A stretch of DNA of 64,000 bases from Dehalococcoidia bacterium (GCA_965222025.1 CBDCTI010000007.1:555339-619338), one strand, 5' to 3'; numbered from the stretch's first letter, positions 33,690 to 50,772 are shown. Numbers and translations are program-made. The notes: a model not told the origin generated them from the letters alone.

Positions 33690-35513
33690 ATGTCCAATAA
33701 ACCTGTTGGTCTTATTGTAAGAACAGTTATCCTCTCCACTGTATTGATGCTGGTGTTTATGGTCGCCTGCGGGGGCGAGAGTTCACCCGAGGCAACCGAC
33801 GCGCCTGCTGCCACCTCGGCTCCCGCCGCAACTTCCGCCCCTGCCGCGACGACGGCCATGACGGCCACCGAAGAACCAACTCCCACGGCACGGCCCGCCA
33901 GGGCCACCGCGACCCCAGTGCCTGTGGGGGCCCCAACCCCGACTACCGCACCGATAGTCACCAGTTCTACCGGGCGGCTGGTCGCTTCCCTCGGGACCCT
34001 TTTCGTAGAGACCAATATCCCCTGGGGATTCTGCATGCTCCAGATGAGCAAACGACCGGCCTACGAGAACCTGATTGGTGTCGACCGGTACAACGGCGCG
34101 CTGATACCGGAACTGTCGCCTGAATGGTCGTTGAGCGAAGACGGCTTGGCTTGGAGCTTCAAGCTGCGTGAGGGCATCCCCTTCCACCATGGCTACGGCG
34201 AGTTTACCGCCGAGGACGTGAAGCACCAGGTCGCCATGGTAACCCAGGAAGGGTCCGAGTCCTGCGAAGCCAATCCTTACCGTGAAACCATTGACAATGT
34301 CGAGGTGGTGGACGACTACAACGTGATTTTCCACCAGAAGAAGCCGGACAGCTTCACCGTCGAGTTCTACAACTTCGGTGGACACGGCACGTCCGCCGCG
34401 ATGAGCAAGAGACAGTACGACGAGGGCGGCGAGGAAGCTTACGGCAGGCAGATCGTGTCAACCGGCCCCTACCAGTACATTTCCAGGAACCTAGGCGAGT
34501 CCATCCTGTACGAGCGCATACCGGACCACTGGCGAAAGACCCCGGATTTCGAGGAACTGCAATTGTACTTCGTGGCCGAGGAGGCCACCCGCCTGGCCAC
34601 ACTCCTGGCCGATGAAGCTCACATAGTTGTCCTGCCTCAGGATTTGCAGCAGACCGCTATATCAGAGGGATATCAGCCTCAGTTGAGCAGTCTCCCCGCT
34701 GTGGGGTACAGCTTCTTCTTTGGCGGGCAGTACTACGGCATGACCAACGATGAAGGGCAGGATATCCAGGGGACTGATCCCTGGGTCGGTCTGAATGACA
34801 ATGCCCGAAAGGTTCGGCAGGCCATGAACATGGCCATCAACAAGGAGGAGTTGCACAGAGAGATATTCCAGGGGCGGGGAGAGAGGCAGTGGGTCTATGG
34901 TTACCACGGCTCCCTGCTGGGCTGGAACCCGGAATGGGAAGAAAAGGGCCCGGAACTCTACAACTATAACCCGGAACGGGCCAAGGAACTGATGCAGGAA
35001 GCTGGATACGAGGACGGCTTCAAGCTGATTTCCATCCTGATTCCTCACGACCTGGTGTCGGAACAGATTCAGGTCATTGAGCTCATCGATCTCTATATGC
35101 AGGAGATCGGCATCGAGACCGAATTCCAGCAACTCGATATCGGAAACTGGGTCCCCATGTTCCGCAACCGCGAAACCGTCGGCAACATCCATCCCAACTC
35201 GGGTTCGTACCGCGACCCCCAGTTCACGATCTCTTCCTACAACACCAACTGGAGCATCGTGGCCTCGTTCGTGACTCCCTTTATCGACCAGAAATGGGAT
35301 GAGTTGACTCAGGCCACCAGCCCGGCAGACCGGGACCGCGTCATGATGGACATCGGGAATCATATGTTCGACGAGTTTGCCTCGATGCCCCTGTTCTGGT
35401 TCCCGGCGGTGGTGATGCTGAATACAGACGTGGTGGCCGAATACGCTTTCCCCGGAAACCGCAGGGAAATCTTCAGCCACATGGAGTTCGCGAAAGCGGC
35501 CGACACCCAGTAA
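33690..35513 (+). CDS. ABC transporter substrate-binding lipoprotein, family 5 (peptide/nickel type)
   Basis: Lipobox FMVACGG followed by an Ala/Thr/Pro linker. The length (about 607 aa) and body are typical of DppA/OppA/NikA-class binding proteins. Confidence 0.8.
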   Translation: MSNKPVGLIVRTVILSTVLMLVFMVACGGESSPEATDAPAATSAPAATSAPAATTAMTATEEPTPTARPARATATPVPVGAPTPTTAPIVTSSTGRLVASLGTLFVETNIPWGFCMLQMSKRPAYENLIGVDRYNGALIPELSPEWSLSEDGLAWSFKLREGIPFHHGYGEFTAEDVKHQVAMVTQEGSESCEANPYRETIDNVEVVDDYNVIFHQKKPDSFTVEFYNFGGHGTSAAMSKRQYDEGGEEAYGRQIVSTGPYQYISRNLGESILYERIPDHWRKTPDFEELQLYFVAEEATRLATLLADEAHIVVLPQDLQQTAISEGYQPQLSSLPAVGYSFFFGGQYYGMTNDEGQDIQGTDPWVGLNDNARKVRQAMNMAINKEELHREIFQGRGERQWVYGYHGSLLGWNPEWEEKGPELYNYNPERAKELMQEAGYEDGFKLISILIPHDLVSEQIQVIELIDLYMQEIGIETEFQQLDIGNWVPMFRNRETVGNIHPNSGSYRDPQFTISSYNTNWSIVASFVTPFIDQKWDELTQATSPADRDRVMMDIGNHMFDEFASMPLFWFPAVVMLNTDVVAEYAFPGNRREIFSHMEFAKAADTQ

Positions 35514-35598
35514 CCTCCGCCCCATTCGCAAAATATCCCAAGTTCGAAATGTGGACTATGGTTAGTCCACATTTCTATTCCGGGCAAGGCACTCGAGA

Positions 35599-36519
35599 AT
35601 GCAGAGATTCATCCTGGTAAGGCTGTTCCATGCGGTGATTGCCCTTTGGGTAATCACGGTGGTCGTCTTTGTCCTGGTTCGTTTCAGTGGCAGTCCCGTC
35701 GACGCGTTGGCTCCAGCTGAGGGAAGGGTCGAGGACCTGATAAAACTGGAAGAATATTGGGGCCTTGACAAGCCCCTGATTGTTCAATATTTCGACTACA
35801 TGGGGAAAATTTTCCAGGGACAGCTGGGGGACTCTTACAAATGGCGTGGAACAACGGTGGCGGAGTTGATCGCAACGCGACTTCCCGCGACCGCCCAGCT
35901 GGCCGGCGTTGCGCTGCTGATCAGCATTGTCATCGCGGTCCCTATGGGCGTATTTGCTGCCATCAAACGCGATTCCTTCATGGACAGCGGAGGCAAGGGA
36001 TTCGCCATGATAGGGCAAGCGGTACCTCCTTTCTGGCTTGGAATCATCCTCATCTGGATTCTCGCGGTCAAGCTGGATGTCTTTCCCACATCCGGCAAGG
36101 GGGGCATCAGCCACATCGTCCTCCCGGCAATAACCATGGGCTGGTTCCAGGTGGCGGCCATCATGCGCCTGGTGCGGTCGTCCATGCTGGACACGCTGGA
36201 TAGCGAATACGTCAATTTGGCCAGGGTGAAGGGCATACCGGAACGGAAGGTGATCTGGAAACATTGCCTGAGAAATGCCTCAGTGGCCCCGCTAACCTAT
36301 TTCGGAGTGATATCCGCCGCCATCCTGGTGGGATCAATAACCACCGAGACGGTCTTTGCCTGGCCCGGATTGGGGCGGCTGGTTCTGGAAGCCACCCTGA
36401 GCCGAGATTACGCAGTGGTTCAGGCGGTGGTGCTGCTGTTTGCGGGTATGTACATCATGGGCAATCTGATAGTAGACATTCTGTATGCCTACCTGGACCC
36501 CCGTATAAGGTTCAACTGA
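35599..36519 (+). CDS. ABC transporter permease (DppB/OppB-like)
   Basis: 306 aa. N-terminus MQRFILVRLFHAVIALWVITVVVF and the EAA-loop region are typical. Confidence 0.88.
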   Translation: MQRFILVRLFHAVIALWVITVVVFVLVRFSGSPVDALAPAEGRVEDLIKLEEYWGLDKPLIVQYFDYMGKIFQGQLGDSYKWRGTTVAELIATRLPATAQLAGVALLISIVIAVPMGVFAAIKRDSFMDSGGKGFAMIGQAVPPFWLGIILIWILAVKLDVFPTSGKGGISHIVLPAITMGWFQVAAIMRLVRSSMLDTLDSEYVNLARVKGIPERKVIWKHCLRNASVAPLTYFGVISAAILVGSITTETVFAWPGLGRLVLEATLSRDYAVVQAVVLLFAGMYIMGNLIVDILYAYLDPRIRFN

Positions 36520-36644
36520 CCGCATGTCTGGGCCTCACTTGATTACCACAGCAATTCCGACCCAAATCGTTACAACTCATCTGGCCATAGCTCCGCCTCC
36601 GGTGCCAGGGCGCTATAAGTCAGATAGGGCAGGGCTATAGGCTT

Positions 36645-37529
36645 ATGGAAGGCACGTTTGAGCGTTCCACCCTTCGACGGCTGGCGATCACAGCCGGCGA
36701 GGTTCGTCGGTACCCGCTGTTGCCAATCACCGTATTGCTGGTCTTCCTGGTTCTCCCCGGCATCTTTGCCAACCAGGCCGCTCCCCATCCCCCAACGAGC
36801 GGCAGTGCCAGCAACCGCCTGGTTCCCCCGGTGTGGCTGGAGGGGGGTACGTGGACCCATCCGTTGGGCACCGACAAAATAGGGCGCGACATCCTGAGCC
36901 GGATAATCCACGGCGCTCGCATATCGCTGGTGGTCGCGCTGGTATCCATTGCCATTGGCGCCACGGTCGGTGTCACCCTGGGGCTGGTTGCCGGATATTT
37001 TGGCGGGAATGTTGACCACCTCATTATGAGGCTGGTCGATTTCACCCTGGCGTTGCCTTCCATTCTGCTGGCCCTGGTGCTGGCCACGGTGATGAGGCCG
37101 GGGTTTTCCAGCGTCGTCATCATAATTGCCCTGGTAATCTGGGCCCGGTATGCGCGCATGGTCCGGGCTGAGACGCTCGCAGTCAAAGAGCTGGACTTTA
37201 TCGCTAGGGCCAAGGTCGCCGGCAATTCAAACTTGCGCATCATGTTCCGGCATGTCTTTCCCAACGTGGTGAACAGCCTGATCGTGCTGGCTACCCTGGA
37301 GGTAGGGCAGGTCATCATTTTCGAAGCGTCTCTCAGCTTCCTCGGAGTGGGCATTCCGCCGCCCCGACCGGCCTGGGGACTGATGGTGGCAGACGGGCGG
37401 GTCTTGGTGATAACGGCCTGGTGGGTTTCCTTCTTCCCAGGCTTGGCCATCCTGCTTACCGTGCTATCCATGAATCTGCTGGGTGACTGGGTCAGGGACA
37501 AGCTGGATCCTCGGCTGAGAAATCTGTAG
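36645..37529 (+). CDS. ABC transporter permease (DppC/OppC-like)
   Basis: 294 aa. [24 protein letters not shown] is the OppC N-terminal signature. Confidence 0.88.
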
Positions 37530-37914: not shown

Positions 37915-38298
37915 ATGAAGAAAGTCACCATGGGCGACATTCCCCGGACCCCGGCTGACATGGCCCCCCTCGGTAGCGGCGGACTGATGACTGGGAGCCA
38001 GGTCTGGCGCCAGTCCATCCTGAACGCCGAAGACTCAAACAACTTCAACTTCGCCATCGTCGCCTTTGACGCCGGCTCTCGCAACAAGTTCCACAAGCAC
38101 TCCGGCGACCAGATCCTGGTAGTCACCGAGGGCAAGGGCAAGGTTGCCTCAGACGATGAGGTTCTCGAAGTCGCTGAAGGCGACGTCGTTGTCATTCCGG
38201 CCGGTGAGAACCACTGGCACGGTGCTCCCGACGACACGGGCATGGCCCACATCACCATCACCGTCAAGGGCAGCCAGACCGAGCAGACCGAGGCCTAG
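37915..38298 (+). CDS. cupin domain protein
   Basis: Cupin motifs HKHSGDQILVVTEG and PAGENHWHGA. Confidence 0.8.
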   Translation: MKKVTMGDIPRTPADMAPLGSGGLMTGSQVWRQSILNAEDSNNFNFAIVAFDAGSRNKFHKHSGDQILVVTEGKGKVASDDEVLEVAEGDVVVIPAGENHWHGAPDDTGMAHITITVKGSQTEQTEA

Positions 38299-38422: not shown

Positions 38423-39343
38423 TCAGTCGCCCTCCGTCTTGATAGGCTGTGCCGCTGGGGTGATACCCGCCTCGGCGGGAGGCGTGTCGGACGTGACTCG
38501 TGGCTGCCTCTGCCTCAAGGCAACCAGCCTGGACCGCAAATTCGAATAGACCATCACCACCGCAAATACCGACGCCTCCACCAGCACAATGGTGGCCCCA
38601 GACGAAACATCAACGAAGTAGCTCAGGTATATCCCGAAGAAGCCGCAGGCCGCGCCGATTCCTGCGGACAACATCAGCATCCTCGGGAAGCTGTCGGTCA
38701 GCATCCGGGCCGATACCGGCGGTATCACCGTGGCCCCCGCGATGAGCAGCACGCCCAGCACCTGCAGCGACACCACGATGGTCCCCGCCAGCACCAGCGA
38801 GAACATCGCCTCCACCCATCCGGTCGGCACTCCGTAGAACTGGGCCACGTCCCCGTCAAAGGTCGTGAAAAGAAATTGCTTGTAAGCCACGAACAGCACC
38901 AGGGCCGTCCCGAGGGCCACCGCCGCCAACGCCACCAGGTCCCCCGCTGTAACGCCGACAATGTTGCCGAAGAGCGCCGTCTCAAAGTCCCGGGTGAAGC
39001 TCTTGTAGCGACTGATCAGGACAATGCCCATGGCAAAGCTGGCCGTGGTAATAACGCCGATCGCAGCGTCGTAGGCGATCTTCCGTTTCTTCGTCGTCAG
39101 CGTTATCAGCTGTGCGCAGAGAAATCCCCATATCGTCGACCCGATGAGGAAGTTGAACGACATCACGAAGGACACCACGGCGCCACCCAGAACGGCGTGC
39201 GCCAGCCCATGGCCGATGTATGCCATCCGCTTCAGGACAACGTAGACGCCGATGGTTCCGCAGAGTGCCCCGGCGATTATGGCGGCAACCATCCCCCGGA
39301 TGATGAAGGGATAGCCAAATGGCTCCAGGAACGTTTCAAACAT
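38423..39343 (-). CDS. metal ABC transporter permease (TroC/TroD/ZnuB family)
   Basis: ABC-3 family pattern with 8-9 TM segments. The start is taken at MFETFLEPF (39343). The ORF is open to 39373. Confidence 0.85.
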   Translation of the reverse strand: MFETFLEPFGYPFIIRGMVAAIIAGALCGTIGVYVVLKRMAYIGHGLAHAVLGGAVVSFVMSFNFLIGSTIWGFLCAQLITLTTKKRKIAYDAAIGVITTASFAMGIVLISRYKSFTRDFETALFGNIVGVTAGDLVALAAVALGTALVLFVAYKQFLFTTFDGDVAQFYGVPTGWVEAMFSLVLAGTIVVSLQVLGVLLIAGATVIPPVSARMLTDSFPRMLMLSAGIGAACGFFGIYLSYFVDVSSGATIVLVEASVFAVVMVYSNLRSRLVALRQRQPRVTSDTPPAEAGITPAAQPIKTEGD

Positions 39344-40196
39344 GGCTATGGGTATGCCCGGCAGTCTCCGCATCGCCGTTCCCCGCGCCGTTGCGCGCGT
39401 AGCGGTGGGGACTCTCGGCCACTATGGGCATTCCTTCGTAATGGATTACCGGCATGTCCGCGCCGTATGTCTGGCGCAGCACGTAGGGCGTTATTACCTC
39501 GTAGGGCGTGCCTTCAGCCAGTACTCGACCGGCCAGGCACACAAGCCGCGGCAAGTGCACAGCCACGGCGTTGATCTCGTGAGTCGTGATCACTATGGTG
39601 ACGCCCTGGTGGTTGAGGTCATGCAGCAGGTGCATAATGTCGTCGCGAGTCTTGACGTCGACTCCGGACGTCGGTTCGTCCAGCAGTAGCAGCGATGGGC
39701 TGCTGACCAGCGCCCGGGCCAGAAAGGCCCGCTGTTGCTGCCCGCCCGAAAGCTCGCGGATGTGCCGTCCGGCCAGCTCGAGAATTCCCAGCCGGTCCAT
39801 CATGCGGTCGGCCAACTGCTTCTCCTCCTGGCGGAACCACGGGAAGAAGCGGTTCTCCATCGTCCGGCCCATCATCACCACTTCCCGGACGGTTACCGGG
39901 AAGTTCCAGTCGATGGTCTCCAGTTGCGGCACATAGCCGATGCGTGGCCTCTTCTCCGTGACCCTGGCGCCGTTGACCAGCACCTCGCCTTCGTAAACGT
40001 CCACTGCGCCCAGCATCGAGCGCAGCAACGTCGTCTTGCCAGACCCGCTGGGTCCCAGCAGGCCAACAAAGTCCCCCTGCATAATCTGCAGATTGACTCC
40101 CTGTAGTGCCTTCTGTTTCTCGTAGCCGCAAGACAGTCCGTTGATCTCGACCAGCGGAATGCCTCGAACGTGCTCATGGGGTAGGGGATGCAGCAT
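39336..40196 (-). CDS. metal ABC transporter ATP-binding protein (TroB/ZnuC family)
   Basis: GPSGSGKTT, LSGGQQQRAFLARAL and LLLDEPTSGVD. The ends carry His residues (MLHPLPHEH..., ...GHTHSHV). Confidence 0.9.
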   Translation of the reverse strand: MLHPLPHEHVRGIPLVEINGLSCGYEKQKALQGVNLQIMQGDFVGLLGPSGSGKTTLLRSMLGAVDVYEGEVLVNGARVTEKRPRIGYVPQLETIDWNFPVTVREVVMMGRTMENRFFPWFRQEEKQLADRMMDRLGILELAGRHIRELSGGQQQRAFLARALVSSPSLLLLDEPTSGVDVKTRDDIMHLLHDLNHQGVTIVITTHEINAVAVHLPRLVCLAGRVLAEGTPYEVITPYVLRQTYGADMPVIHYEGMPIVAESPHRYARNGAGNGDAETAGHTHSHV

Positions 40197-40199: not shown

Positions 40200-40267
40200 T
40201 TTTCATTCAGCCTTGATTTTCATTCAGCATGGTTTTTCATTCAGCCCTGATTTTCATTCGGCCTTGA
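40200..40267. repeat. 17-bp tandem repeat x4 (ttttcattcagccttga) abutting the ATPase start codon
   Basis: Units at 40200, 40217, 40234 and 40251. The gene ATG is at 40196-40194 on the minus strand. Confidence 0.9.
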
Positions 40268-40337
40268 TCAGATAACGCCTCAAACTTGTGCAGTGCGGTT
40301 CCCGCCAGGTATCAGGTAAATCTCATTCCGCTGACTT

Positions 40338-43300
40338 CTAGTGGTTGTGATGGTGTCCGCCCGGCACGCCGGTCCAATCGGAGGACAATGGCGTGTCGTG
40401 GCCATCGTGATGGCCCTTCTCCTCATGCTCCTGAGCATGCCCGTTGGTGGCGCTCACTAGTTGCGTTGCCACCAACTGGGCATACAGCCCCTGCCGTTCC
40501 AGCAGTTCTTGGTGGTTGCCCTGCTCCACCGCCCCGCCTTGGTCCAGAACCACGATCCGGTCGGCGTTGCGGATGGTCGACAGACGGTGAGCAATGACGA
40601 GGGTGGTTCGCCCCTCCATCAGGTTCTCCAGGGCCTGCCGCAGCTGGCTTTCGCTCACCGCATCCAGGTGCGACGTCGCCTCGTCCAGGATCAGCACGGG
40701 CGCATTCTTCAGCAGGGCCCGAGCGATGGCGACGCGCTGCCGCTGGCCGCCCGAGAGCTGCATTCCCCTCTCACCTACGATGGTGTCGTACCCGTCAGGG
40801 AAGACCGTGATGAAGTCGTGGCAGTTGGCCTGCCGAGCCGCCTCTTCCAGATCGGCCTGCGTGGCTTCGGACCGGCCCAGCATGATATTGTCCCGGATGC
40901 TTGCGTTGAACAGGTAGGTGTCCTGCGACACAAGGGCAATCCGCTGCCGGAGATCATCCAGCTTGAACTCACGGACATCGTGGCCGTCCAGTTCGACCGC
41001 GCCGTGGCCGGGGTCCCAGAACCTCATGGCCAAGTTGGCGCATGTGGTCTTCCCTGCTCCTGAGCGCCCTACAAGCGCGACAGTGTGCCCCGGCTCCACT
41101 TCGAAGCTCACGTCGTGGAGTGCCTGCGGCTCCCCGGGGCCATAGTCGAAGCCCACGCCCGCGAATACTACCGAAGGCGCCGTCTGGTGGCCGTCCGAGT
41201 GGTTGTGGTGGTCGTGGCCGTCGTGCTGCCCGACGCCAGGGCCGTCCGCCACCGGCACGGGCTCATCGTGGATCGCGAAGAGTCTCCGGGAGGCTGCCAG
41301 CGTCTCCATCAACTGCTTCATGGTACGGGCAATGTCCGACACCGGCGCAAACGCAGCCACCGAGAGGACCACGGCTAGGATGAGCTCCGGACGGGAAATA
41401 TTCCCGTTGGTCAGCAGCCAGACTCCCACCGTCAGCACCACCAGCCCTCCCAGCGCGGTCATCGCTTCGATGAACCCGATCTGGAAAGCCCGCTCCTTCA
41501 GGAACCGCAGCTGGAAGTGGGCGAACCGCCAGCTGTTGGCCACCATCTCGGCAGTGCGTGAACGCCCCTGCCCGAAGGCAACGATTTCCCGCATGCCCTG
41601 GATACTGTCCAGCATGTGCGCATGAACGTCGCCCAGCTGGTGCCGCAGTTCCTCGCCGAGCCGCTCCGAGCGCTTCAGTGCGAAGAACGGGCTCAGCGCC
41701 ACGGCCACTAGGAACGGCGCCACTGCTATCGCCATGGGCCACGCGATCACCGCAAGGACTGCCACCACCACGCCTGGCACCACCACGGCGGTGAAAGCGG
41801 GAGTGATAGTGTGTGCGAAGAAGAACTCCACCGTCTCCACGTCGCCCCCGACCACGCTCACCAGGTCCCCGGACCGTCGTCGAGTCATGTAGGCCGGTGC
41901 CAGCGGGTCCAGCTTCCGGTAGACATCCACTCGCATTTCCGCCAGCAGACGGTAAGCAAGGTCGTGGGCCACCCAAGACTCCGTCCAGATGAAGAAGGCC
42001 GCAAGGGGTGTCAATACCGCCAGCAGGATCAGTAGCAGCGTCAACTCGCCGCCAGTGATCACCTGCCCCACCAGCAGCGCGCTGACAACGCCCACGCCAA
42101 TGGCCGTTCCGTGATGCGCCACTCCCAGAAGGAAGGTTAATATGAGCTCGTTCCGCCACGGCTTGACCAGTCCCAGCAGCCGCACCCACACGGCGATGAT
42201 GCCCAGCGCCCGTTCGCCCTGTCCGTGCTGGCGTTCGTCTGGCTGATGCTGGGCTGCCGGGGCGGCATGATGATGCCCGTGCCCGTCGTGCGCCGGTTGC
42301 GGCATGAAGGCAGCGGCATCCGGCTGCGGGCCGTGGTTTCCTTCGTCATGAACTTGGGCAGTCAGATGATGCCCGTCGCCGTGGGTGCGATGGTGCGCCC
42401 GCGCACCGTCGTGGTCTTGATTCTCATGATCGCGATGGCCGTCTTGGTCGTGGACACCGCCATGCCGTTCGTGATTCGCCGTATGGTCGGAATGTTGCGT
42501 TTCACCCTGGTCATCGTCGTGATGGGCCTGAGGCGCCTCATGATGATGCCCATGTCCCTGGTGCGCCGGACTGGGAATGAACGCGCTCACATCCAGTTGC
42601 GCGGCCAATGTCTGCGTGGCGGCGCGGCCCTCTTCTGGAGGTCGGTAGTCGAAGTCCAGCCGCTCCTGCTGCTGCGACATCAGGTCGGAGTAAAGACCGC
42701 CGGCCGCGACCAGGTCGCCGTGTGAGCCCGTCTCGACGAGCCGTCCCTCGTCCAGCACTAGGATGCGGTCGGCATTCACCACGCTGGAAAGTCGGTGGGC
42801 GATCCTCAAGGTCGTGCGGCCTTCCATCAACCGGTCCAGGGCCTGTTGAATGACCGCCTCGTTTTCGGCGTCCACATTGGAAAGCGCCTCATCCAGGATC
42901 AGGATGGGAGCGTCCTTCAGCAGTGCCCGCGCAATGGCGATGCGTTGCTTCTGGCCGCCGGAAAGCCGGACGGCCCTCTCACCTACCACCGTCCCGTAGC
43001 CATCGGGCAAGTGGCTGATGAATTCGTGGGCGTTGGCATTCCGGGCTGCCTCCTCCAGTTGTCCCTGGGTTGCGTCGGGATTACCGAAGCGAAGGTTCTC
43101 CGCCACTGTACCGTGGAACAGGTAAGTGTCCTGGGTAACGACCGACAGCTGCTCGCGCAGTTGCGTGAGAGGAATATCTCTCAGTTCGCGCCCGCCCAGT
43201 CTTATTGATCCCTGCTGCGGGTCGAAGAACCTGAGTATCAGCCAGACTATGGTCGACTTCCCGGCCCCGCTGGGACCCACAAGTCCCATCGTCTCACCCT

Positions 43301-44405
43301 CTCGCAAGGTGAACGACAGGTCGTGCAGTGCCGGGCGTCGGCCCTCGCTGTAGGCGTGGCTCACGTTGTCGAAAATCACTTCCGGAGCCAGCGGGCCAAC
43401 AGACTCAGGCGCAGCGCTGTTAGAGGCCTGTCGCTCCGGCTCCTGAACGGATGCCGGCGAGTCCATGATGGCAAATATGCCCTCCGCGGAGGACATCGCC
43501 ATCACGCCATCGTGGTAGAGCTGCACCAGCTCGCGCAGCGGGCGGAAGACCTCCACGCCAAGCATCAACACGATGAGAAGCGCCCTGAGTTCCATGTCCC
43601 CATCGGCCACCCGCACCGCGCCCCACCCTAGGGCAACGGCAGCGCCGCCGGTGATGCCCAAGATGGTCAGGGCGCCCGTCGCCGCATTTGCCGCCAGCAC
43701 GCCCATGGTGGTGCGAAACAGTTCGCGGGCCCGTTCGGCCAGCAGTTCTCCGCGTACCCGACTCTGTCCGAAAGCCTTGAGCGTTGAGAGTCCCTGAACC
43801 GCGTCCAGAAAGTCCGCGCCCAGTGCTCCGTATGCGTCGCGGCGGGCCATGCTCCGCTCCCGGTTCCAGCGATGGAACAGGTTCGGAATGATCAGGGTCA
43901 GAAGAGCGAAGGCCAGGAATATCAGGCCGGTTCGGAAGTCTATCAGCGCCATGAAGATGAAGATCACCACCGGCGCCAGCGCCGCTACGATCATCTGCGG
44001 CAGATATCGGCCGAAGAAGGCCTCGAGACGTTCCACTCCCTCCGCCAGCGACATCAGCGCGTCGCCGGTCCGTGAGGAATCGAAGTATCCCGGCCCGAGC
44101 GCCAGCGAGTGTTCGTACAGGCGCTCCCGCAGCTTCACCTTCACCAGGCTTGCGGTGTGATGGCTCATCACCTCCTGCAGGTACTGCAGGCCACCACGCG
44201 CCACAATCAGCGCCGCCATCCCCACCAGCGGCCATGTCAGAGACTCGAAGGTCGCGTTGCCGCGCACTACCTCCACGATAATCAGCGCGGCCACTGCCAG
44301 CCGCGCCACCCCGGCGGCCACCGCCAGCATCCCCACGATGGCCGAAATTATGATGCGCCAGCGAACGTCACTGGCCAGCGACAATAGCCTCGGGTGCAGA
44401 TACAT
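40338..44405 (-). CDS. fused two-half ABC transporter (TMD-NBD-TMD-NBD), CydD-CydC-like, with His-rich linker, loop and tail
   Basis: 1355 aa. Half 1 has the CydD-like RYLPQM motif, GPSGAGKST and LSGGQKQR. Half 2 has GRSGAGKTT and LSGGQRQR. The ~150-aa His/Asp/Gln-rich linker spans aa ~585-735. GQHDGHDHHNHSDGHQ lies before NBD2. The C-terminal tail is ...KGHHDGHD...GGHHHNH. Confidence 0.85.
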   Translation of the reverse strand: MYLHPRLLSLASDVRWRIIISAIVGMLAVAAGVARLAVAALIIVEVVRGNATFESLTWPLVGMAALIVARGGLQYLQEVMSHHTASLVKVKLRERLYEHSLALGPGYFDSSRTGDALMSLAEGVERLEAFFGRYLPQMIVAALAPVVIFIFMALIDFRTGLIFLAFALLTLIIPNLFHRWNRERSMARRDAYGALGADFLDAVQGLSTLKAFGQSRVRGELLAERARELFRTTMGVLAANAATGALTILGITGGAAVALGWGAVRVADGDMELRALLIVLMLGVEVFRPLRELVQLYHDGVMAMSSAEGIFAIMDSPASVQEPERQASNSAAPESVGPLAPEVIFDNVSHAYSEGRRPALHDLSFTLREGETMGLVGPSGAGKSTIVWLILRFFDPQQGSIRLGGRELRDIPLTQLREQLSVVTQDTYLFHGTVAENLRFGNPDATQGQLEEAARNANAHEFISHLPDGYGTVVGERAVRLSGGQKQRIAIARALLKDAPILILDEALSNVDAENEAVIQQALDRLMEGRTTLRIAHRLSSVVNADRILVLDEGRLVETGSHGDLVAAGGLYSDLMSQQQERLDFDYRPPEEGRAATQTLAAQLDVSAFIPSPAHQGHGHHHEAPQAHHDDDQGETQHSDHTANHERHGGVHDQDGHRDHENQDHDGARAHHRTHGDGHHLTAQVHDEGNHGPQPDAAAFMPQPAHDGHGHHHAAPAAQHQPDERQHGQGERALGIIAVWVRLLGLVKPWRNELILTFLLGVAHHGTAIGVGVVSALLVGQVITGGELTLLLILLAVLTPLAAFFIWTESWVAHDLAYRLLAEMRVDVYRKLDPLAPAYMTRRRSGDLVSVVGGDVETVEFFFAHTITPAFTAVVVPGVVVAVLAVIAWPMAIAVAPFLVAVALSPFFALKRSERLGEELRHQLGDVHAHMLDSIQGMREIVAFGQGRSRTAEMVANSWRFAHFQLRFLKERAFQIGFIEAMTALGGLVVLTVGVWLLTNGNISRPELILAVVLSVAAFAPVSDIARTMKQLMETLAASRRLFAIHDEPVPVADGPGVGQHDGHDHHNHSDGHQTAPSVVFAGVGFDYGPGEPQALHDVSFEVEPGHTVALVGRSGAGKTTCANLAMRFWDPGHGAVELDGHDVREFKLDDLRQRIALVSQDTYLFNASIRDNIMLGRSEATQADLEEAARQANCHDFITVFPDGYDTIVGERGMQLSGGQRQRVAIARALLKNAPVLILDEATSHLDAVSESQLRQALENLMEGRTTLVIAHRLSTIRNADRIVVLDQGGAVEQGNHQELLERQGLYAQLVATQLVSATNGHAQEHEEKGHHDGHDTPLSSDWTGVPGGHHHNH

Positions 44406-44468: not shown

Positions 44469-45476
44469 CTACTGGGAGTAAACGGCACCGCTCTGTCCTT
44501 CGAATACTAGGCTTACGTCCACGTCGTCAAAGGCATCGGCGTTGCCGCCCAATGCCGGAATCATGATTCTCATGTTGCCGAGCATCAGTCCCAGGTACGA
44601 ATGGTCCGGGTCTCCTGGCACTCCAGGTAGATCGTCGTCCGACAACTGGTCGACGAAAGTTGTGTTGCCTTCCCGTGCGATGATTTCCAATACCTGGCTG
44701 GGAAACTCTTCCGACCCGAAGATCGCCGGCAGTCCCAGTTCCTTTACCTGGTCTATCAGCTCCGCCATTTCCCGGGCCGAAGGTTCGGCAAAGTCCGAGG
44801 GCTGCACCGCGCCGATGACTTCCATCCCGTAGGTAAGTGCAAAGTAGGCCCACGAGTCGTGATAGGTCACCAGCTTGCGGTTCTCGGGCGGTATGGTGGC
44901 CACGGACTCACGGATCGCCGCGTCCATCGCGGCTACACGCTCTCTGAAGGACTCCAGGTTTTCCTCATAGTAGCTGGCGTTTTCGGGGTCAAGGGACGCC
45001 AGCTCCGCTTGGGCCAACTCGGCATATTTCAGCCCCAGTGTCGGGTCCGGCCAGAGATGCGGGTTGGGATGACCCTCAGACTCCGGGAAACTGAAGTCAA
45101 ACTGCCACTGCTCACGGGTGATTGCCCGGTCTCCCAGCCGCAATATCGGCGTGGTGTCCTTTTTGTTGGCCTCCGCAAGCTGCAGGGTCGGCTCCTCCAG
45201 GAACAGCCCGTTGGCGATGATCAAATCGGCGTCTACCATCAGCTTGGCCAGTGACGGCTGAGGCTCGAAGATGTGCGAGTTCACCCCTTCCGGCACCGCT
45301 CCCTCCAGTTCTATGCGATCGCCCCCAATGTTCTCCACAATGCTTGTTATGGGCGACACCGTGGTGACTACCCTGAGCTTTCCGCTTTCAACTTCCGAGC
45401 CACCGCAAGACACGGCGCTCAGAAGCAATGCCAGTATGCAAATAGTGAGACCGAAGACGGGAAAACGCTTAGTCAA
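44469..45476 (-). CDS. metal ABC transporter substrate-binding lipoprotein (TroA/ZnuA cluster A-I family)
   Basis: TTG start at 45476, with GGGGA 9 nt upstream. Lipobox LLSAVSCGG. Candidate metal ligands are NSHIFEP, NPHLWPDP, TYHDSWAYF and DDL. Confidence 0.85.
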   Translation of the reverse strand: MTKRFPVFGLTICILALLLSAVSCGGSEVESGKLRVVTTVSPITSIVENIGGDRIELEGAVPEGVNSHIFEPQPSLAKLMVDADLIIANGLFLEEPTLQLAEANKKDTTPILRLGDRAITREQWQFDFSFPESEGHPNPHLWPDPTLGLKYAELAQAELASLDPENASYYEENLESFRERVAAMDAAIRESVATIPPENRKLVTYHDSWAYFALTYGMEVIGAVQPSDFAEPSAREMAELIDQVKELGLPAIFGSEEFPSQVLEIIAREGNTTFVDQLSDDDLPGVPGDPDHSYLGLMLGNMRIMIPALGGNADAFDDVDVSLVFEGQSGAVYSQ

Positions 45477-45490: not shown

Positions 45491-45634
45491 GATTAATTCC
45501 AGCCCGATTAATTCCAACCCGGTTAATTCCAGCCCGGTTAATTTCAGCCCGGTTAATTCCAGCCCGGTTAATTCCAGCCCGGTTAATTCCAGCCTTGTTA
45601 ATTCCAGCCTGATTAATTCCAGCCTGCTGAATCC
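45491..45634. repeat. 15-bp tandem repeat, ~9.5 copies (ggttaattccagccc), between the Fur-like gene and the binding-protein gene
   Basis: Units every 15 bp from 45491. Copies 3, 5 and 6 are identical and the edge copies are degenerate. Confidence 0.92.
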
Positions 45635-45649: not shown

Positions 45650-46123
45650 TTACTCCGCATCCTCGCTGGTTCCCTGGCAACCGGCACAAACACCAGTTAC
45701 TGAAAAATGCTCCAGGTCTGGCACAAAACCAAACTCCCGGACCAGCGTCTCCCGGAACTCTTCCAGGTAATGCGGGCTGAGGTTGAAGGCACCGCTGCAC
45801 ACGCGACATACCATGTGATGATGCAGGTCTCCGGGCATTGTCAGCTCATAATGCAGCCGGTCCCCGATCTCGACCTCGGTCACCACTCCCGCGTCGCGGA
45901 ACAGGCGCAATGTGCGGTAGACCGTCGCAATGTCCATGTACTGGTAGGCCTCTCGCGCCCGCCGGAACACCTCATCCACGCCCATATGTCCCCCGCCTTC
46001 CGCTACGGCGGAAAGCACGAGGACCCGCTGGGGCGTAATCCTGTGCCCCTGCATGCGAAGCCTGTCCAGCGCCTGTTCGTGATGCAAAGCGCAACTCGCA
46101 GTAATTGCAATTGGTTGCCACAA
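45650..46123 (-). CDS. Fur family transcriptional regulator
   Basis: RITPQRVLVLSAV... winged helix, HHHMVCRVC and GVCAGC cysteine pairs. Confidence 0.85.
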   Translation of the reverse strand: MWQPIAITASCALHHEQALDRLRMQGHRITPQRVLVLSAVAEGGGHMGVDEVFRRAREAYQYMDIATVYRTLRLFRDAGVVTEVEIGDRLHYELTMPGDLHHHMVCRVCSGAFNLSPHYLEEFRETLVREFGFVPDLEHFSVTGVCAGCQGTSEDAE

Positions 46124-46176
46124 CGGATGGTAGCAGGAATAGCCCCAAAGTCAATACAAGGAGCGGAGGGAACCAG

Positions 46177-46374
46177 GGTCATTAGATTATCGGCAAACCC
46201 GTTGACCCTGAGCCTGTCGAAGGGCCTATCCTGAGCTTGTCGAAGGGCCTGTCCTGAGCTTGTCGAAGGGCCTATCCTGAGCTTGTCGAAGGGTCGTTCG
46301 TTCATGGTTCGACAAGCTCACCACCAACGGACCGGCAAGAATGGCCAGGCTTGTAATCGATAATCGAATGACCC
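46177..46374. mobile_element. MITE-like palindromic element, copy A (four internal 23-bp subrepeats)
   Basis: Terminal inverted repeat ggtcattagattatcg / cgataatcgaatgacc. The core hairpin is gagcttgtcgaa...ttcgacaagctc. The 23-bp unit cctgagcttgtcgaagggcctgt occurs four times. Confidence 0.75.
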
Positions 46375-49503: not shown

Positions 49504-50772
49504 CTAGACCCGCACCACCCGGATCATGAATACTGACACCACCCTCGTCGCTGCCATGGCAAGAAACACGATCGGCCAGGGGCTGCCGGTCACGTCCAGC
49601 ACCACGCCGAACACGATCGCTTGCGCCCCAGCGTACAGGTAGCCATGAGCGTCCAGGATGCCCGAAGCGGTCCCGGCCATCCGTCGACCCCCCATATCCA
49701 CAGACACCGTCGACATCGGCGACATACCCATGGCCAAGCCACCGGTCAGCAACAGCACCGCCCCCAGGACCTCGTTGGACGGCGGCACCAGGGCAATGAC
49801 CGCAATAATGCCGGCGCTCGCCAGGCAGGACGAAATCACCAGCGGCCTTCGCTGGCTGTTCAGGAAACGGTCCGAGATGAACCCCGACAATGGCGGCGCT
49901 AGCAGGTACCCCACCGGCAACAGCACCGTCACGAACACCGTCGACTCAATCGACAGCTCGCCCACTTCCGAATAGTAGATCGCCACCCACGTGGTGAGCC
50001 CATAGCGGACCACGTTCTCCAGCCCCTTCACGTGGCAGGCCAGGACGAAGCGGCTGTTGCTCAGCAGCTCCCAAAAGGGCCCCAGGCCCTTCAATCGTTC
50101 GGCGCTCACCATCTCCGGGGTGGCGGAAACCTCGTCCTCTTCGATGTATTCGGGCAGGTCGAGATCGGCAGGACGGTCGCGCACCAGCAGGTAGAAGGCA
50201 ACCCCCAGCACCGCTGAGATTATCGGCAGGTACCGGAACGCGGCGCGCCATCCCCACTCCGCTCCGACCCAACCAGCCAGCGTCCACATCACCAGCATCG
50301 CCCCGCCTGCTGACGTCCCCACGATGCCCAGCGCGACTCCCCGGCGACTGCGCGGCCACCACTGCGAGATCATGCTCATGGCCGGGGCCCAGCACGCGGC
50401 GTTCACGAACCCCGCCAGCCCCAGCGGAATCGCCATGGTCAACGGAGAGACCGCAAAGCTGGTGATAAAGTTGAATACGGCCGTCAGTATCGCCCCTACC
50501 ATCACCCACAGCCGCAGCCCGAAGGCCTCCGACAACCGGCCATGGAACACATCCCCCAGTCCGAACCCCCAGAAGAGCATCGCCCAGATCATCGCGATCT
50601 CGACGTTGCTGAGCGCCAGGCTCTCCTTCACCAGCGGCCCCAGCGGATACAGGCTGAACCTTCCCAGGTAGGCGAAGAGGTAGAATCCGGCAAACGCCAG
50701 CAGCACGCGCCACCTGAATACGTGGTAAGCGTGCGGCAGGTCGTCGAATCGAACTGCGCCTATGCTGGTCAT
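49504..50772 (-). CDS. MFS transporter
   Basis: 422 aa, about 12 TM segments. Confidence 0.8.
   Translation of the reverse strand: MTSIGAVRFDDLPHAYHVFRWRVLLAFAGFYLFAYLGRFSLYPLGPLVKESLALSNVEIAMIWAMLFWGFGLGDVFHGRLSEAFGLRLWVMVGAILTAVFNFITSFAVSPLTMAIPLGLAGFVNAACWAPAMSMISQWWPRSRRGVALGIVGTSAGGAMLVMWTLAGWVGAEWGWRAAFRYLPIISAVLGVAFYLLVRDRPADLDLPEYIEEDEVSATPEMVSAERLKGLGPFWELLSNSRFVLACHVKGLENVVRYGLTTWVAIYYSEVGELSIESTVFVTVLLPVGYLLAPPLSGFISDRFLNSQRRPLVISSCLASAGIIAVIALVPPSNEVLGAVLLLTGGLAMGMSPMSTVSVDMGGRRMAGTASGILDAHGYLYAGAQAIVFGVVLDVTGSPWPIVFLAMAATRVVSVFMIRVVRV

What the first reader, a model, noticed from the sequence alone, without database searches (positions are those of the whole stretch)
40338..44405. 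1355-aa fused CydD-CydC-like ABC transporter carrying three cytoplasmic His-rich segments
What the sequence shows:
- Both halves are complete TMD-NBD units. Half 1 has the CydD-like ERLEAFFGRYLPQM motif.
- The halves are joined by a ~150-aa linker (nt ~42201-42653) that is extremely rich in His, Asp and Gln.
- The linker is framed by a duplicated motif: AFIPSPAHQGHGHHHEAPQAHH and AFMPQPAHDGHGHHHAAPAAQH.
- A second His cluster (GQHDGHDHHNHSDGHQ) lies between TMD2 and NBD2.
- The C-terminus ends ...EEKGHHDGHD...GGHHHNH.
- No cydAB genes are nearby.

Established knowledge: CydDC is a heterodimeric thiol/heme-linked exporter, and I do not recall such His-rich segments in CydDC proteins.

Inference: the His-rich cytoplasmic segments could bind or sense metal and gate the transporter.
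Basis: partly seen in the sequence, partly recalled or inferred. Interest (0 to 1): 0.65.

Follow-up and report, generated by a model that had tools for sequence, protein, structure and literature searches.

The report
His-rich ABC exporter inside zinc-uptake operon
A large two-halved membrane pump related to the bacterial haem exporter CydDC carries natural "His-tags" on its cytoplasmic side and sits, in dozens of soil Dehalococcoidia genomes, in the middle of a metal-regulated zinc-import operon, which points to an uncharacterised, metal-sensing helper pump for zinc acquisition.

Summary
Window 40338-44405, on the minus strand, holds an intact 1355-aa fused TMD-NBD-TMD-NBD ABC exporter. It has a 150-aa linker with 19% His, a duplicated AF[IM]PxPAHxGHGHHH motif and a ...GGHHHNH C-terminus.

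The gene is the third of five co-oriented genes: Fur-family regulator, ZnuA/AztC-type binding lipoprotein, this exporter, ZnuC-like ATPase, ZnuB-like permease. A conserved promoter and GCAA-N4-TTGCAA operator lie upstream. This operon recurs in 32 of 33 related Dehalococcoidia genome loci and in three further sub-clades.

The fusion, the His-rich linker (61-247 aa, median 20% His) and the His tail are family traits, not an assembly artefact. Close relatives with His-poor linkers stand alone, outside metal operons.

The halves are CydD-like and CydC-like and keep both haem-axial histidines. They lack the three propionate-binding arginines, and no cydAB is nearby, so I do not file it as a working CydDC.

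Best reading (about 0.45): a metal-responsive accessory exporter of a zinc-uptake system. Its disordered His-rich segments would bind cytosolic Zn and tune the pump. The substrate is unknown and nothing comparable has been characterised. I rate it a new variant of a known kind.

The parts
46127..46154 (-). Promoter-like element: -35 TTGACT (46154-46149) and -10 TACCAT (46132-46127), 16 nt apart
   Evidence: Read. The same TTGAC-N16/17-TAnnAT arrangement is conserved upstream of the regulator gene in all 33 related loci aligned.
46105..46118 (-). Putative operator GCAACCAATTGCAA (GCAA-N4-TTGCAA), just downstream of the -10 box
   Evidence: Conserved in position and sequence in all loci, including the distant L076 and L079. 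It is the only exact match in the 64-kb window. It resembles the hexamers of the S. coelicolor Nur box tTGCaa-N5-ttGCAA but has different spacing (PMC2691836).
45650..46087 (-). Fur-family metalloregulator (about 145 aa from a conserved TTG; the listed ORF start at 46123 would overlap the operator)
   Evidence: Fur-family NCBIfam models match, all below their cut-offs. Pfam FUR was scored on the orthologues. Best solved relative is 3EYY (Nur), 77 bits, but two of the three Ni-site histidines are Glu here. CxxC...CxxC and the HHH motif are present. Orthologue present in 29 of 32 operon loci.
45493..45624 (.). 15-bp tandem repeat x8.8 between the regulator and the binding-protein gene (specific to this genome)
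   Evidence: Absent from related loci, where the two genes nearly abut.
44469..45476 (-). ZnuA/AztC-type cluster A-I substrate-binding lipoprotein (about 335 aa, TTG start, signal peptide ...LLLSAVSC)
   Evidence: Pfam ZnuA 216 bits; best NCBIfam hit AztC. Metal ligands are His (NSH), His (NPHLW), His (YHDSW) and an Asp region. The third position aligns with His of Synechocystis ZnuA and with Glu of Mn-type MntA/PsaA. The three His motifs are present in nearly all 35 loci checked (NPHLW and YHDSW in all 35, NSH in 33). There is no His-rich loop.
40338..44405 (-). The finding: 1355-aa fused ABC exporter (TMD1-NBD1-linker-TMD2-NBD2-tail). RBS GGAGGG lies about 8 nt upstream of the ATG.
   Evidence: AF2 model of the linker-deleted protein: pLDDT 83, pTM 0.82, TM-score 0.86-0.89 to NBD-closed ABCB1. 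Both ATP sites are consensus: Walker A, LSGGQ and Walker B D-E in both halves.
42201..42653 (-). Cytoplasmic His/Asp/Gln-rich linker (aa 585-735) with two copies of AF[IM]PxPAHxGHGHHH (nt 42540-42584 and 42267-42311)
   Evidence: In homologues it is 61-247 aa with 12-25% His. Sequence identity in its middle is about 33%, against 89% in the core. Predicted disordered.
41184..41231 (-). Second His cluster GQHDGHDHHNHSDGHQ in the TMD2-NBD2 connector (aa 1059-1074)
   Evidence: Not conserved: 4 or more His in only 15 of 120 homologues. Low pLDDT in the model.
40341..40445 (-). C-terminal His-rich tail (aa 1321-1355) ending ...SDWTGVPGGHHHNH
   Evidence: 116 of 121 family members have 4 or more His in the last 8 residues. 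A His tail persists even in His-poor-linker relatives. Predicted disordered.
43506..43520 (-). TM6 of half 1, LYHDG: equivalents of E. coli CydD Tyr311/His312 (haem axial ligand)
   Evidence: residue roles from PMC10374445. His298 is invariant in alignment A2.
41808..41975 (-). TM2-TM3 of half 2: ESWVAHD (His814 = CydC His85; Ser810 replaces Arg81; Ile806 replaces Arg77) and FFFAHT (His865 replaces Arg136)
40200..40268 (.). 17-bp tandem repeat x4 in the exporter-znuC spacer (amplified AAGGCTGAATGAAAA ribosome-binding region)
   Evidence: Not conserved. Related loci have 3-247-bp spacers, mostly 36-123 bp, many ending AAGGCTGAA, with no operator.
39336..40196 (-). ZnuC/AztA-like importer ATPase (286 aa) with conserved C-terminal ...GHTHSHV tail
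   Evidence: The GHxHxH(A/V) C-terminus is conserved in most of the loci checked. The E. coli ZnuC zinc-sensing CxxxHxCC motif is absent (PMC12236471).
38423..39373 (-). ZnuB/AztB-like ABC-3 permease (316 aa); overlaps the ATPase gene by 38 nt
   Evidence: GHGL[AS]H (H-x3-H) is conserved in 33 of 34 loci. The window's second permease has D-x3-H there (SDGLAH), and the E. coli ZnuB metal residues Asp36 and His40 have the same spacing.

Best explanation
The gene encodes an accessory, metal-responsive ABC exporter that belongs to a zinc (or other soft divalent metal) uptake operon.

Shown:
- It is a functional-looking type IV ABC exporter with two consensus ATP sites.
- It descends from a non-canonical, fused CydDC-like subfamily.
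- It sits between the binding-protein gene and the ATPase and permease genes of a ZnuABC/AztABC-type importer. All five genes share one strand, with short spacers and one conserved promoter and Fur-family operator, so they are probably co-transcribed.
- It carries long, disordered, compositionally conserved His-rich segments attached to NBD1 (the linker) and NBD2 (the C-terminal tail), on the cytoplasmic side.

Inferred mechanism:
1. When the metal is scarce, the Fur-family repressor leaves the operator. Importer and exporter are then made together.
2. The exporter pumps out a cytoplasmic small molecule that supports metal capture by the loop-less binding protein. The molecule is most likely a metal-coordinating ligand or cofactor, not haem with free propionates.
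3. When imported Zn2+ refills the cytosol, it binds the poly-His linker and tail. This alters NBD engagement and adjusts the pump after translation.

Step 3 would be analogous to the zinc-sensing C-terminal domain of E. coli ZnuC and to the His-rich loops of ZIP and CDF transporters. The identity of the substrate, the direction of the effect (inhibition or activation) and the identity of the metal are all inferences.
For: **Operon membership**
- Same strand, with 63-nt and 141-nt spacers.
- The order regulator-SBP-exporter-ATPase-permease recurs in 32 of 33 Dehalococcoidia species loci.
- It also recurs in the diverged sub-clades L076-L079 and L090.
- A conserved -35/-10 and a GCAA-N4-TTGCAA operator lie upstream of the regulator gene only. 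No conserved element lies in the internal spacers.

**Zinc-type chemistry**
- The SBP has His/His/His(+Asp) ligands, in nearly all 35 loci checked; Mn-type proteins have Glu at the third position.
- The permease has H-x3-H.
- The best NCBIfam hits are AztC and AztB.

**The His-rich segments look functional, not like drift**
- 12-25% His is maintained over 61-247 aa while sequence identity falls to about 33%. No Cys is present.
- 119 of 121 members carry the PAHxGxGHHHH motif, and 116 of 121 carry a His tail.

**His-richness tracks operon context**
- Among close relatives (69-75% identical), P0419 (12 His in 77 aa) is in the operon. P0121 (1 His) and P0398 (5 His) are not.
- More distant fused relatives (52% identity or less) have 0-3 His and no metal context.
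- The pocket residues are essentially the same in His-poor and His-rich relatives (YH[DE], SW..HD, F[AG]HT). This argues that the His segments add regulation rather than define the substrate.

**Other support**
- Precedent for a built-in cytosolic Zn sensor on an ABC ATPase: ZnuC ZSD. This operon's ZnuC lacks that motif but ends in GHxHxH.
- Linker and tail are predicted disordered and cytoplasmic.
Against: - There is no experimental datum. Metal binding, regulation and substrate are all inferred.
- No biosynthetic genes for a dedicated zincophore lie nearby.
- One His-rich member (L017/P0106, 13 His in 77 aa) lies outside any znu operon and lacks the operator.
- The regulator's metal cannot be assigned. 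Its closest solved relative is the nickel sensor Nur.
- The window holds a second, more typical zinc importer with its own Fur paralogue. Operon 1 could therefore serve another metal.
- AF2 predicts no docking of the conserved motif.
- Whole genomes could not be scanned for cydAB.
Confidence: 0.45

Rival explanations
1. Zinc (or zinc-ligand) efflux valve. The His-rich cytoplasmic segments collect excess Zn2+ and feed it to the His298/His814/His865 (+Asp299/Asp815) pocket. The exporter would act as an overflow device, co-expressed with a high-affinity importer that lacks the ZnuC zinc-sensing domain.
For: - The cationic Arg triad of the CydC pocket is replaced by Ile/Ser/His, while two His are kept. 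This gives a His-rich, non-cationic site.
- His-rich cytoplasmic loops are typical of metal efflux proteins (CDF, RcnA, P1B-ATPases; my own knowledge).
- ZnuC of this operon lacks CxxxHxCC.
- One sister locus has a CDF gene 5 kb away.
Against: - The same pocket residues occur in His-poor relatives that stand in non-metal contexts.
- Co-expression of an exporter of the very ion that is being scavenged is counter-intuitive.
- To my knowledge, type IV ABC exporters are not known to move bare metal ions.
Confidence: 0.17
2. Membrane-tethered zinc buffer or chaperone. The poly-His linker and tail mainly act as a local acceptor or store for Zn delivered by the neighbouring ZnuBC importer and hand it to client proteins. 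The transport activity of the ABC core would be unrelated or secondary.
For: - About 45 His sit in disordered cytoplasmic segments, and composition rather than sequence is conserved.
- Linker length varies widely and includes tandem expansions (P0007), as expected for a capacity-type function.
- Operon co-expression with the importer.
Against: - The ABC core is under strong constraint: 89% median identity and all catalytic motifs intact in both halves. Transport therefore matters.
- The discrete conserved motif and the fixed positions next to the NBDs fit regulation better than bulk storage.
Confidence: 0.13
3. Exporter-fold importer of a metal chelate, in the manner of YbtPQ, IrtAB, CdtPQ or MptABC. 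The protein would bring in a zinc-ligand complex, and the His-rich segments would strip or receive the metal in the cytoplasm.
For: - Zur-regulated exporter-fold ABC transporters exist: mptABC in M. avium paratuberculosis (PMC4298942) and cdtPQ in C. diphtheriae (PMC6711530).
- YbtPQ (6p6i) is among the best half-transporter matches in the PDB for half 1: 275 bits, against 297 for Sav1866.
Against: - Similarity to YbtPQ is no greater than to generic exporters such as Sav1866, TM288 and MsbA.
- No NRPS, PKS or opine-synthase genes lie nearby, and there is no IrtA-like reductase domain.
- The reciprocal best similarity is to CydD and CydC.
Confidence: 0.1
4. A genuine CydDC: a haem exporter for cytochrome bd and cytochrome maturation that happens to reside in, or is regulated with, a metal operon. 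The His tails would be incidental.
For: - D-then-C order with reciprocal best hits.
- Half 2 passes the TIGR02868 cut-off.
- Both axial haem ligands and Tyr311 are conserved.
- PGAP names a family member CydC (P0115).
Against: - Arg77, Arg81 and Arg136 of CydC, which bind the haem propionates, are Ile, Ser and His here.
- No cydAB in 64 kb here or within +/-7 kb in any fetched Dehalococcoidia locus. A canonical fused CydDC (P0133, with the Arg signature) directly follows cydB.
- Half 1 is below the TIGR02857 cut-off.
- Both ATP sites are consensus, whereas E. coli CydDC has one degenerate site.
Confidence: 0.1
5. Artefact: two adjacent half-transporter genes mis-joined by assembly, or a low-complexity region without function.
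For: One 7.4-kb metagenome contig in the same 90% cluster carries the gene as 746-aa and 441-aa fragments.
Against: More than 200 fused homologues of 1214-1451 aa exist, including on complete multi-megabase chromosomes. The linker is always in frame and always retained.
Confidence: 0.01

Closest known systems
CydDC of E. coli (haem ABC exporter needed for cytochrome bd; PMC10374445)
   Same: - Type IV exporter fold.
- Half 1 matches CydD best and half 2 matches CydC best, in D-then-C order.
- Shared RYLPQM motif.
- Both axial haem ligands (CydC His85, CydD His312) and CydD Tyr311 are conserved.
   Different: - Single fused polypeptide.
- Arg77/Arg81/Arg136 of CydC are replaced by Ile/Ser/His.
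- Both ATP sites are consensus.
- No cydAB linkage.
- Embedded in a metal-uptake operon.
- Carries a His-rich linker and tail.
Canonical fused CydDC next to cydB (e.g. P0133, 39% identical)
   Same: Same fused TMD-NBD-TMD-NBD architecture, with a linker of about 50 aa.
   Different: - P0133 keeps the R-x3-H and R pocket signature and directly follows cydB.
- Its linker has 0 His.
Non-canonical fused 'CydCD' subfamily (P0121-P0131 and P0271-P0385; Dehalococcoidia and marine Proteobacteria; annotated only by homology)
   Same: - Same pocket signature (S/L/N-x3-H-D and [FY]-[AG]-H-[TVY]).
- 43-75% identity and the same architecture.
   Different: - Linkers hold 0-5 His.
- The genes are stand-alone, in varied non-metal contexts such as gamma-glutamyltranspeptidase, M19 dipeptidases and LysR regulators.
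Zinc-sensing domain of E. coli ZnuC (PMC12236471); His-rich loops of ZIP and CDF transporters
   Same: A cytosolic metal-binding element built into a transporter. In ZnuC it is attached C-terminally to the NBD, and it adjusts activity after translation.
   Different: - The ZSD is a folded Cys/His domain (CxxxHxCC) on an importer ATPase.
- Here the elements are long, disordered, Cys-free poly-His segments on an exporter-fold protein.
- Function is not demonstrated.
Zur-regulated exporter-fold ABC transporters: MptABC of M. avium paratuberculosis and CdtPQ of C. diphtheriae (PMC4298942, PMC6711530)
   Same: ABCB-type transporters induced by zinc starvation under a Fur-family regulator.
   Different: - Those are IrtAB-like or YbtPQ-like and lie next to NRPS/PKS genes.
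- They are not inserted into a znuABC operon.
- No His-rich segments are reported for them.
- Their functions are also unproven.
AztABCD / ZnuABC zinc importers
   Same: The surrounding genes are of this type: a cluster A-I SBP with three His ligands, an ABC-3 permease, an ATPase and a Fur-family regulator.
   Different: - No known Znu or Azt operon carries an exporter-type ABC gene between the SBP gene and the ATPase gene.
- The accessory factor in Azt systems is the periplasmic chaperone AztD. In the window's second operon AztD is fused into the SBP.

Membership tests
CydDC (haem/thiol ABC exporter for cytochrome bd assembly) | Two non-identical half-transporters, CydD-like then CydC-like | tested here: met
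   TMD1 vs EcCydD 77 bits, vs EcCydC 49 bits. TMD2 vs EcCydC 79 bits, vs EcCydD 45 bits. The same pattern holds for full halves.
CydDC (haem/thiol ABC exporter for cytochrome bd assembly) | Scores above the curated cut-offs of TIGR02857 (CydD) and TIGR02868 (CydC) | tested here: inconclusive
   Half 1: 419.2 bits against a cut-off of 435 (just below). Half 2: 357.7 bits against 329 (passes), but MsbA-type models give higher raw scores.
CydDC (haem/thiol ABC exporter for cytochrome bd assembly) | Axial haem ligands CydC His85 and CydD His312 (with Tyr311) | tested here: met
   SWVAH(814)D and LY(297)H(298)D are conserved in all family members examined. Residue roles come from PMC10374445.
CydDC (haem/thiol ABC exporter for cytochrome bd assembly) | Arg77/Arg81/Arg136 of CydC, which bind the haem propionates | tested here: not met
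   Replaced by Ile806/Ser810/His865. Canonical fused CydDCs retain R-x3-H and R.
CydDC (haem/thiol ABC exporter for cytochrome bd assembly) | Genomic association with cydAB | tested here: not met
   tblastn with E. coli CydA/CydB gave no hit in the 64-kb window or in any fetched Dehalococcoidia locus. The positive control L086 was found. The rest of the genome could not be searched.
CydDC (haem/thiol ABC exporter for cytochrome bd assembly) | Haem-stimulated ATPase activity / requirement for cytochrome bd maturation | not testable with these tools
   Needs biochemistry or genetics.
Type IV (ABCB-like) ABC exporter fold | 6+6 TM helices with long intracellular extensions and two NBDs with Walker A, LSGGQ and Walker B motifs | tested here: met
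   Pfam ABC_membrane x2 and ABC_tran x2. AF2 pLDDT 83, pTM 0.82. Foldseek TM-score 0.86-0.89 to ABCB1. Motif coordinates.
ZnuABC/AztABC-type zinc-uptake operon (as genomic context) | Cluster A-I SBP with three His ligands, ABC-3 permease and ATPase on one strand | tested here: met
   Conserved in 32 of 33 loci plus L076-L079 and L090.
ZnuABC/AztABC-type zinc-uptake operon (as genomic context) | Control by a zinc-sensing Zur | tested here: inconclusive
   A Fur-family gene and a conserved operator are present. Metal specificity cannot be read from the sequence. The closest solved relative is Nur, but its Ni-site residues His70 and His72 are Glu here.
YbtPQ/IrtAB-type exporter-fold metal-chelate importers | Linkage to metallophore biosynthesis genes, or an IrtA-type siderophore-interaction domain | tested here: not met
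   No such genes or domains in the window operon or in related loci. Sequence similarity is no higher than to generic exporters.
ZnuC-type zinc-sensing domain | CxxxHxCC motif C-terminal to the NBD | tested here: not met
   Absent from the exporter and from the operon's ZnuC. A Cys cluster is present only in the ATPase of the second operon. The resemblance is functional only.

The most novel reading that the evidence does not exclude
A type IV ABC exporter has been recruited as an integral fourth component of a binding-protein-dependent zinc importer. It would be switched directly by cytosolic Zn2+ through intrinsically disordered poly-His segments tethered to both NBDs. That would be the first metal-gated ABC exporter. 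It would work either as a zincophore or thiol exporter that feeds the loop-less binding protein, or as an overflow valve. It would also define the physiological role of a whole non-canonical 'CydDC-like' subfamily whose pocket has lost the haem-propionate arginines.
Probability: 0.3. Interest if true: 0.8.

Novelty: new variant of a known kind. Interest (0 to 1): 0.6.

Why it matters
- **Zinc uptake.** ZnuABC-type systems are considered well understood as three-component importers, plus AztD or ZinT chaperones in some cases. A conserved exporter-type ABC protein placed between the SBP gene and the permease/ATPase genes implies an unrecognised step in metal acquisition. This occurs in a widespread, uncultured soil lineage of Chloroflexota.
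- **ABC transporter regulation.** Disordered poly-His segments attached to both NBDs would be a new way of coupling pump activity to the cytosolic metal pool. This complements the recently described folded zinc-sensing domain of ZnuC.
- **The CydDC debate (haem versus thiols).** The finding singles out a large fused subfamily that keeps the two axial histidines but has lost the propionate-binding arginines and the cydAB linkage. It is therefore a natural test case for what else this pocket can carry.
- **Practical use.** The linker and tail are ready-made constructs for metal-binding studies.

Tried and rejected
1. **Genome hits outside Dehalococcoidia (L034-L075).** I inspected one, L034. It is a generic half-transporter, picked up because a His-run pattern matched the antisense frame. 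The others match at 27-36% identity and were set aside without inspection.
2. **The 17-bp repeat between the exporter and znuC, and the 15-bp repeat between the regulator and znuA, as Zur boxes.** Neither is conserved in related loci. The first is an amplified ribosome-binding region.
3. **A nickel (Nur-type) system.**
   - The regulator's best solved relative is Nur and the operator shares TTGCAA-like hexamers.
   - However, two of the three Ni-site histidines are Glu, the spacing is 4 rather than 5, and the SBP is Zn-type.
   - I keep this as a caveat, not as the reading.
4. **Docking of the conserved AFxPxPAH motif or the tail onto the NBDs.** AF2 with the native linker gives pLDDT 22-39 there, so it offers no evidence either way.
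5. **Pocket geometry (distances among His298, His814 and His865).** Model coordinates are not exposed to the sandbox, so this could not be measured.
6. **Fold search.** It returned only generic ABCB1-type matches.
7. **A His run near 38226-38270.** It is off-frame relative to the cupin gene and is not a feature.
8. **Literature.** Searches combining CydDC, His-rich, zinc, Zur, ABC exporter and linker found no characterised equivalent.

Full report
**1. The observation**

Window 40338..44405 is one uninterrupted ORF of 1355 codons on the minus strand. A GGAGGG ribosome-binding site lies about 8 nt upstream of the ATG.

- Pfam finds two ABC_membrane and two ABC_tran domains.
- The linker (aa 585-735, nt 42201-42653) is 19% His, 11% Asp and 10% Gln. 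The rest of the protein is 2.6% His.
- The two quoted motif copies lie at aa 608-622 and 699-713. The second cluster is at aa 1059-1074. The tail ends ...GGHHHNH.
- The two motif copies are 78% identical over 27 nt, so this is an old duplication and not a recent slippage event.
- A hydropathy scan finds no membrane segment between TM6 of half 1 and TM1 of half 2, or after TM12. With the known N-in topology of type IV exporters, all three His-rich stretches are therefore cytoplasmic.
- An AF2 model of the protein without the linker is confident (pLDDT 83, pTM 0.82). It superposes on NBD-closed ABCB1 with TM-score 0.86-0.89. The connector carrying the second His cluster and the tail have low pLDDT.
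- Both ATP sites carry consensus Walker A, LSGGQ and Walker B D-E motifs.

**2.

All on the minus strand, reading downstream:

| Element | Coordinates |
|---|---|
| Fur-family regulator | 46087..45650 |
| ZnuA/AztC-type binding lipoprotein | 45476..44469 |
| The exporter | 44405..40338 |
| ZnuC/AztA-like ATPase | 40196..39336 |
| ZnuB/AztB-like ABC-3 permease | 39373..38423 |

- The binding protein has His at all three diagnostic ligand positions (NSH, NPHLW, YHDSW). The third aligns with His of Synechocystis ZnuA and with Glu of Mn-type MntA and PsaA.
- The three motifs are present in nearly all 35 related loci (NPHLW and YHDSW in all 35, NSH in 33).
- The permease carries H-x3-H (GHGL[AS]H). 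The window's second permease has D-x3-H at the same place, and the E. coli ZnuB metal residues Asp36 and His40 have that spacing.
- Together these point to zinc, or at least a soft divalent metal, rather than Mn or Fe.

**3. Conservation of the gene and of the operon**

- A search of 5.8 billion proteins returned at least 120 clusters (90% identity level) at 66-98% identity. All are fused and 1214-1451 aa long.
- A species-level genome scan placed 33 of them in Dehalococcoidia MAGs, many on complete 3-5-Mb chromosomes.
- In 32 of the 33 loci the exporter is flanked by the same SBP gene upstream. Where the contig continues, the same ATPase and permease genes lie downstream.
- 29 of these loci have a detectable regulator orthologue.
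- The same five-gene order holds in more diverged sub-clades.
- Upstream of the regulator gene, every locus has a TTGAC-N16/17-TAnnAT promoter followed directly by a GCAA-N4-TTGCAA palindrome. The window copy is at 46105-46118 and is the only exact match in 64 kb.
- The internal spacers are short and carry no conserved element.
- The simplest reading is one autoregulated, metal-controlled transcript.

**4. The His-rich segments are a family trait**

- Across 120 homologues the linker is 61-247 aa long but always 12-25% His (median 20%) and about 15% Asp+Glu, with essentially no Cys.
- Identity to the query is 89% in the core but about 33% in the middle of the linker. Composition, not sequence, is what is kept.
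- The exception is a discrete motif, consensus PDA[SE]AF[MI]P[QRS]PAHxGHGHHHHAAP. It occurs in 1-3 copies in 119 of 121 proteins.
- 116 of 121 proteins end with 4 or more His in the last eight residues.
- The second His cluster is not conserved: 15 of 120.
- AF2 run on a short-linker member with its native linker and tail predicts both as disordered (pLDDT 22-39), with no docking.

**5. His-richness tracks the operon context**

- In the 50%-identity representative library, fused relatives at 52% identity or less have ordinary acidic linkers with 0-3 His and no His tail.
- Four such relatives are stand-alone genes with neither znu nor cyd neighbours.
- Among close relatives (69-77% identical to each other) there is a gradient:
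  - P0419: 12 His in a 77-aa linker, no AFxPxPAH motif. It is in the full Fur-ZnuA-exporter-ZnuC-ZnuB operon.
  - P0398 (5 His) and P0121 (1 His): not in such an operon.
  - L017 (13 His): the one exception, with no znu context and no operator.
- The pocket residues discussed below are the same in His-poor and His-rich members.
- I take this to mean that the His segments were added to an existing transport activity when the gene was recruited to the metal operon. They would then be regulatory or metal-relay elements rather than determinants of the substrate.

**6. Relationship to CydDC**

- The halves are reciprocally closest to E. coli CydD and CydC, and the RYLPQM motif is shared.
- Against NCBIfam, half 1 scores 419 bits on TIGR02857 (cut-off 435). 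Half 2 scores 358 on TIGR02868 (cut-off 329).
- The cryo-EM study of E. coli CydDC assigns the following roles (PMC10374445):
  - CydC His85 and CydD His312 are the axial haem ligands.
  - CydD Tyr311 caps the haem.
  - CydC Arg77, Arg81 and Arg136 bind the propionates.
- Here the two His and the Tyr are conserved (H814, H298, Y297). The three Arg are Ile806, Ser810 and His865, and this holds across the family.
- Fused relatives that keep the Arg signature include P0133, which directly follows cydB.
- No cydA or cydB is found in the window or in any fetched Dehalococcoidia locus, while the search did detect the control.
- I therefore treat the protein as a descendant of the CydDC family with a remodelled, no longer cationic pocket, and not as a working CydDC.
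- I could not check the rest of these genomes for cydAB.

**7. Which metal?**

- The regulator cannot be typed from sequence. All NCBIfam Fur, PerR and Zur models score below their cut-offs.
- Its best solved relative is S. coelicolor Nur (3EYY, 77 bits), and the operator shares TTGCAA-like hexamers with the Nur box. However, Nur's Ni-site residues His70 and His72 are Glu here, and the spacing differs.
- The window also contains a second, more classical zinc importer at 8949-13606. It has:
  - its own Fur paralogue and a different repeated box (TGATAC-N3-GTCTC);
  - an AztC with a His/acidic loop into which a complete AztD chaperone domain is inserted;
  - an ATPase with a Cys cluster and a His tail.
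- Two paralogous regulators could mean two thresholds for zinc, or two metals.
- I estimate zinc at roughly two in three for operon 1, with Ni or Co as the main alternative.

**8. Mechanism**

Shown:
- Exporter fold with intact catalytic motifs.
- Operon membership and the upstream operator.
- Cytoplasmic, disordered, compositionally conserved poly-His segments attached to both NBDs.
- Correlation of His-richness with operon context.

Inferred:
1. The operon is derepressed when the metal is scarce.
2. The exporter sends out a small metal-coordinating molecule or cofactor that helps the loop-less, chaperone-less binding protein.
3. Zn2+ arriving in the cytosol binds the linker and tail and changes NBD engagement.

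Step 3 is analogous to the Zn-locked ZSD of E. coli ZnuC (PMC12236471) and to the His-rich loops of ZIP and CDF proteins. This operon's ZnuC lacks the ZSD motif, but in most loci it ends in GHxHxH(A/V). That fits a shared His-based sensing logic for both ATPases.

Rivals:
- an efflux valve that uses the His/His/His pocket;
- a membrane-tethered zinc buffer or chaperone;
- an exporter-fold chelate importer like YbtPQ, CdtPQ or MptABC, which are Zur-regulated in C. diphtheriae and M. avium paratuberculosis;
- a true CydDC;
- an assembly artefact, which is excluded.

**9. Novelty and limits**

- I found no paper describing an ABC exporter with His-rich segments in a zinc operon.
- The exact protein is in public collections but unnamed. 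One relative is auto-annotated as 'thiol reductant ABC exporter subunit CydC'.
- This is a new variant of a known kind: a known fold and family, with a new architecture and a new genomic role.
- All evidence is comparative and comes from metagenome-assembled genomes.
- The substrate, the metal, and the sign of any regulation remain to be tested.

Noticed in passing
window 8949-13606 (+): A second metal-importer operon with its own Fur-family gene (8949-9407). Its 773-aa AztC-like binding lipoprotein (9647-11968) has a complete AztD zinc-chaperone domain (NCBIfam NF038015, 114.7 bits, aa 202-569) inserted just before the acidic/His loop EEHGHEEEHDEDEGEEHAHGE. Its ATPase (11971-12753) has a Cys cluster CDECLCLNCNVCAC and a C-terminal HGHGLAGDDHGHHH. 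An AztC::AztD insertion fusion seems unusual.
   Followed up: partly
window 8915-8940 and 9400-9640: Five or six copies of a TGATAC-N3-GTCTC-like box lie upstream of the second Fur gene and of its binding-protein gene. This is probably the operator of the second Fur paralogue. It is clearly different from the GCAA-N4-TTGCAA box of the first operon.
   Followed up: no
window 45493-45624, 46207-46293, 40200-40268: Three intergenic tandem repeats flank or interrupt the operon: 15 bp x8.8, 23 bp x3.8 and 17 bp x4. None is conserved in the related loci. The 23-bp unit (CCTGAGCTTGTCGAAGGGCC...) reappears in part in spacers of L030 and L031, which suggests a mobile or expandable repeat family in these genomes.
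   Followed up: partly
window 39336-40196 (-) and its orthologues in L001-L032: The importer ATPase of the operon ends in a conserved GH[ST]H[STAIRN]H[AV] C-terminus in most loci checked, and in L076 in a 60-aa His-rich extension. It lacks the CxxxHxCC zinc-sensing motif described for E. coli ZnuC.
   Followed up: partly
window 33627-37529 (+) and 37915-38298 (+): A NikA/Opp-type binding protein and two NikB/NikC-like permeases (best NCBIfam hits are 'nickel transporter permease' models, below cut-off), with no adjacent ATPase genes. They are followed by a small cupin gene that converges on the operon. The cupin is a conserved neighbour in most related loci.
   Followed up: no
window 6313-7788 (-): IS1182-family transposase (378 bits, above cut-off), lying upstream of and on the opposite strand to the second metal operon.
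   Followed up: no
L085 (P0121) and L081 (P0122): His-poor relatives of the exporter lie next to glutathione-catabolism-type enzymes: gamma-glutamyltranspeptidase in L085 and four M19 dipeptidases in L081. An M17 aminopeptidase and an MFS gene are conserved a few kb upstream of the operon (window 51546-53060 and 49504-50772; also L076, L079, L090). This is a weak hint that the subfamily's substrate could be a thiol or peptide.
   Followed up: no
cluster of the query protein (P0389, P0390): One 7.4-kb metagenome contig carries the gene as 746-aa and 441-aa pieces. This is probably a frameshifted or mis-assembled copy in the repetitive His-coding region.
   Followed up: no
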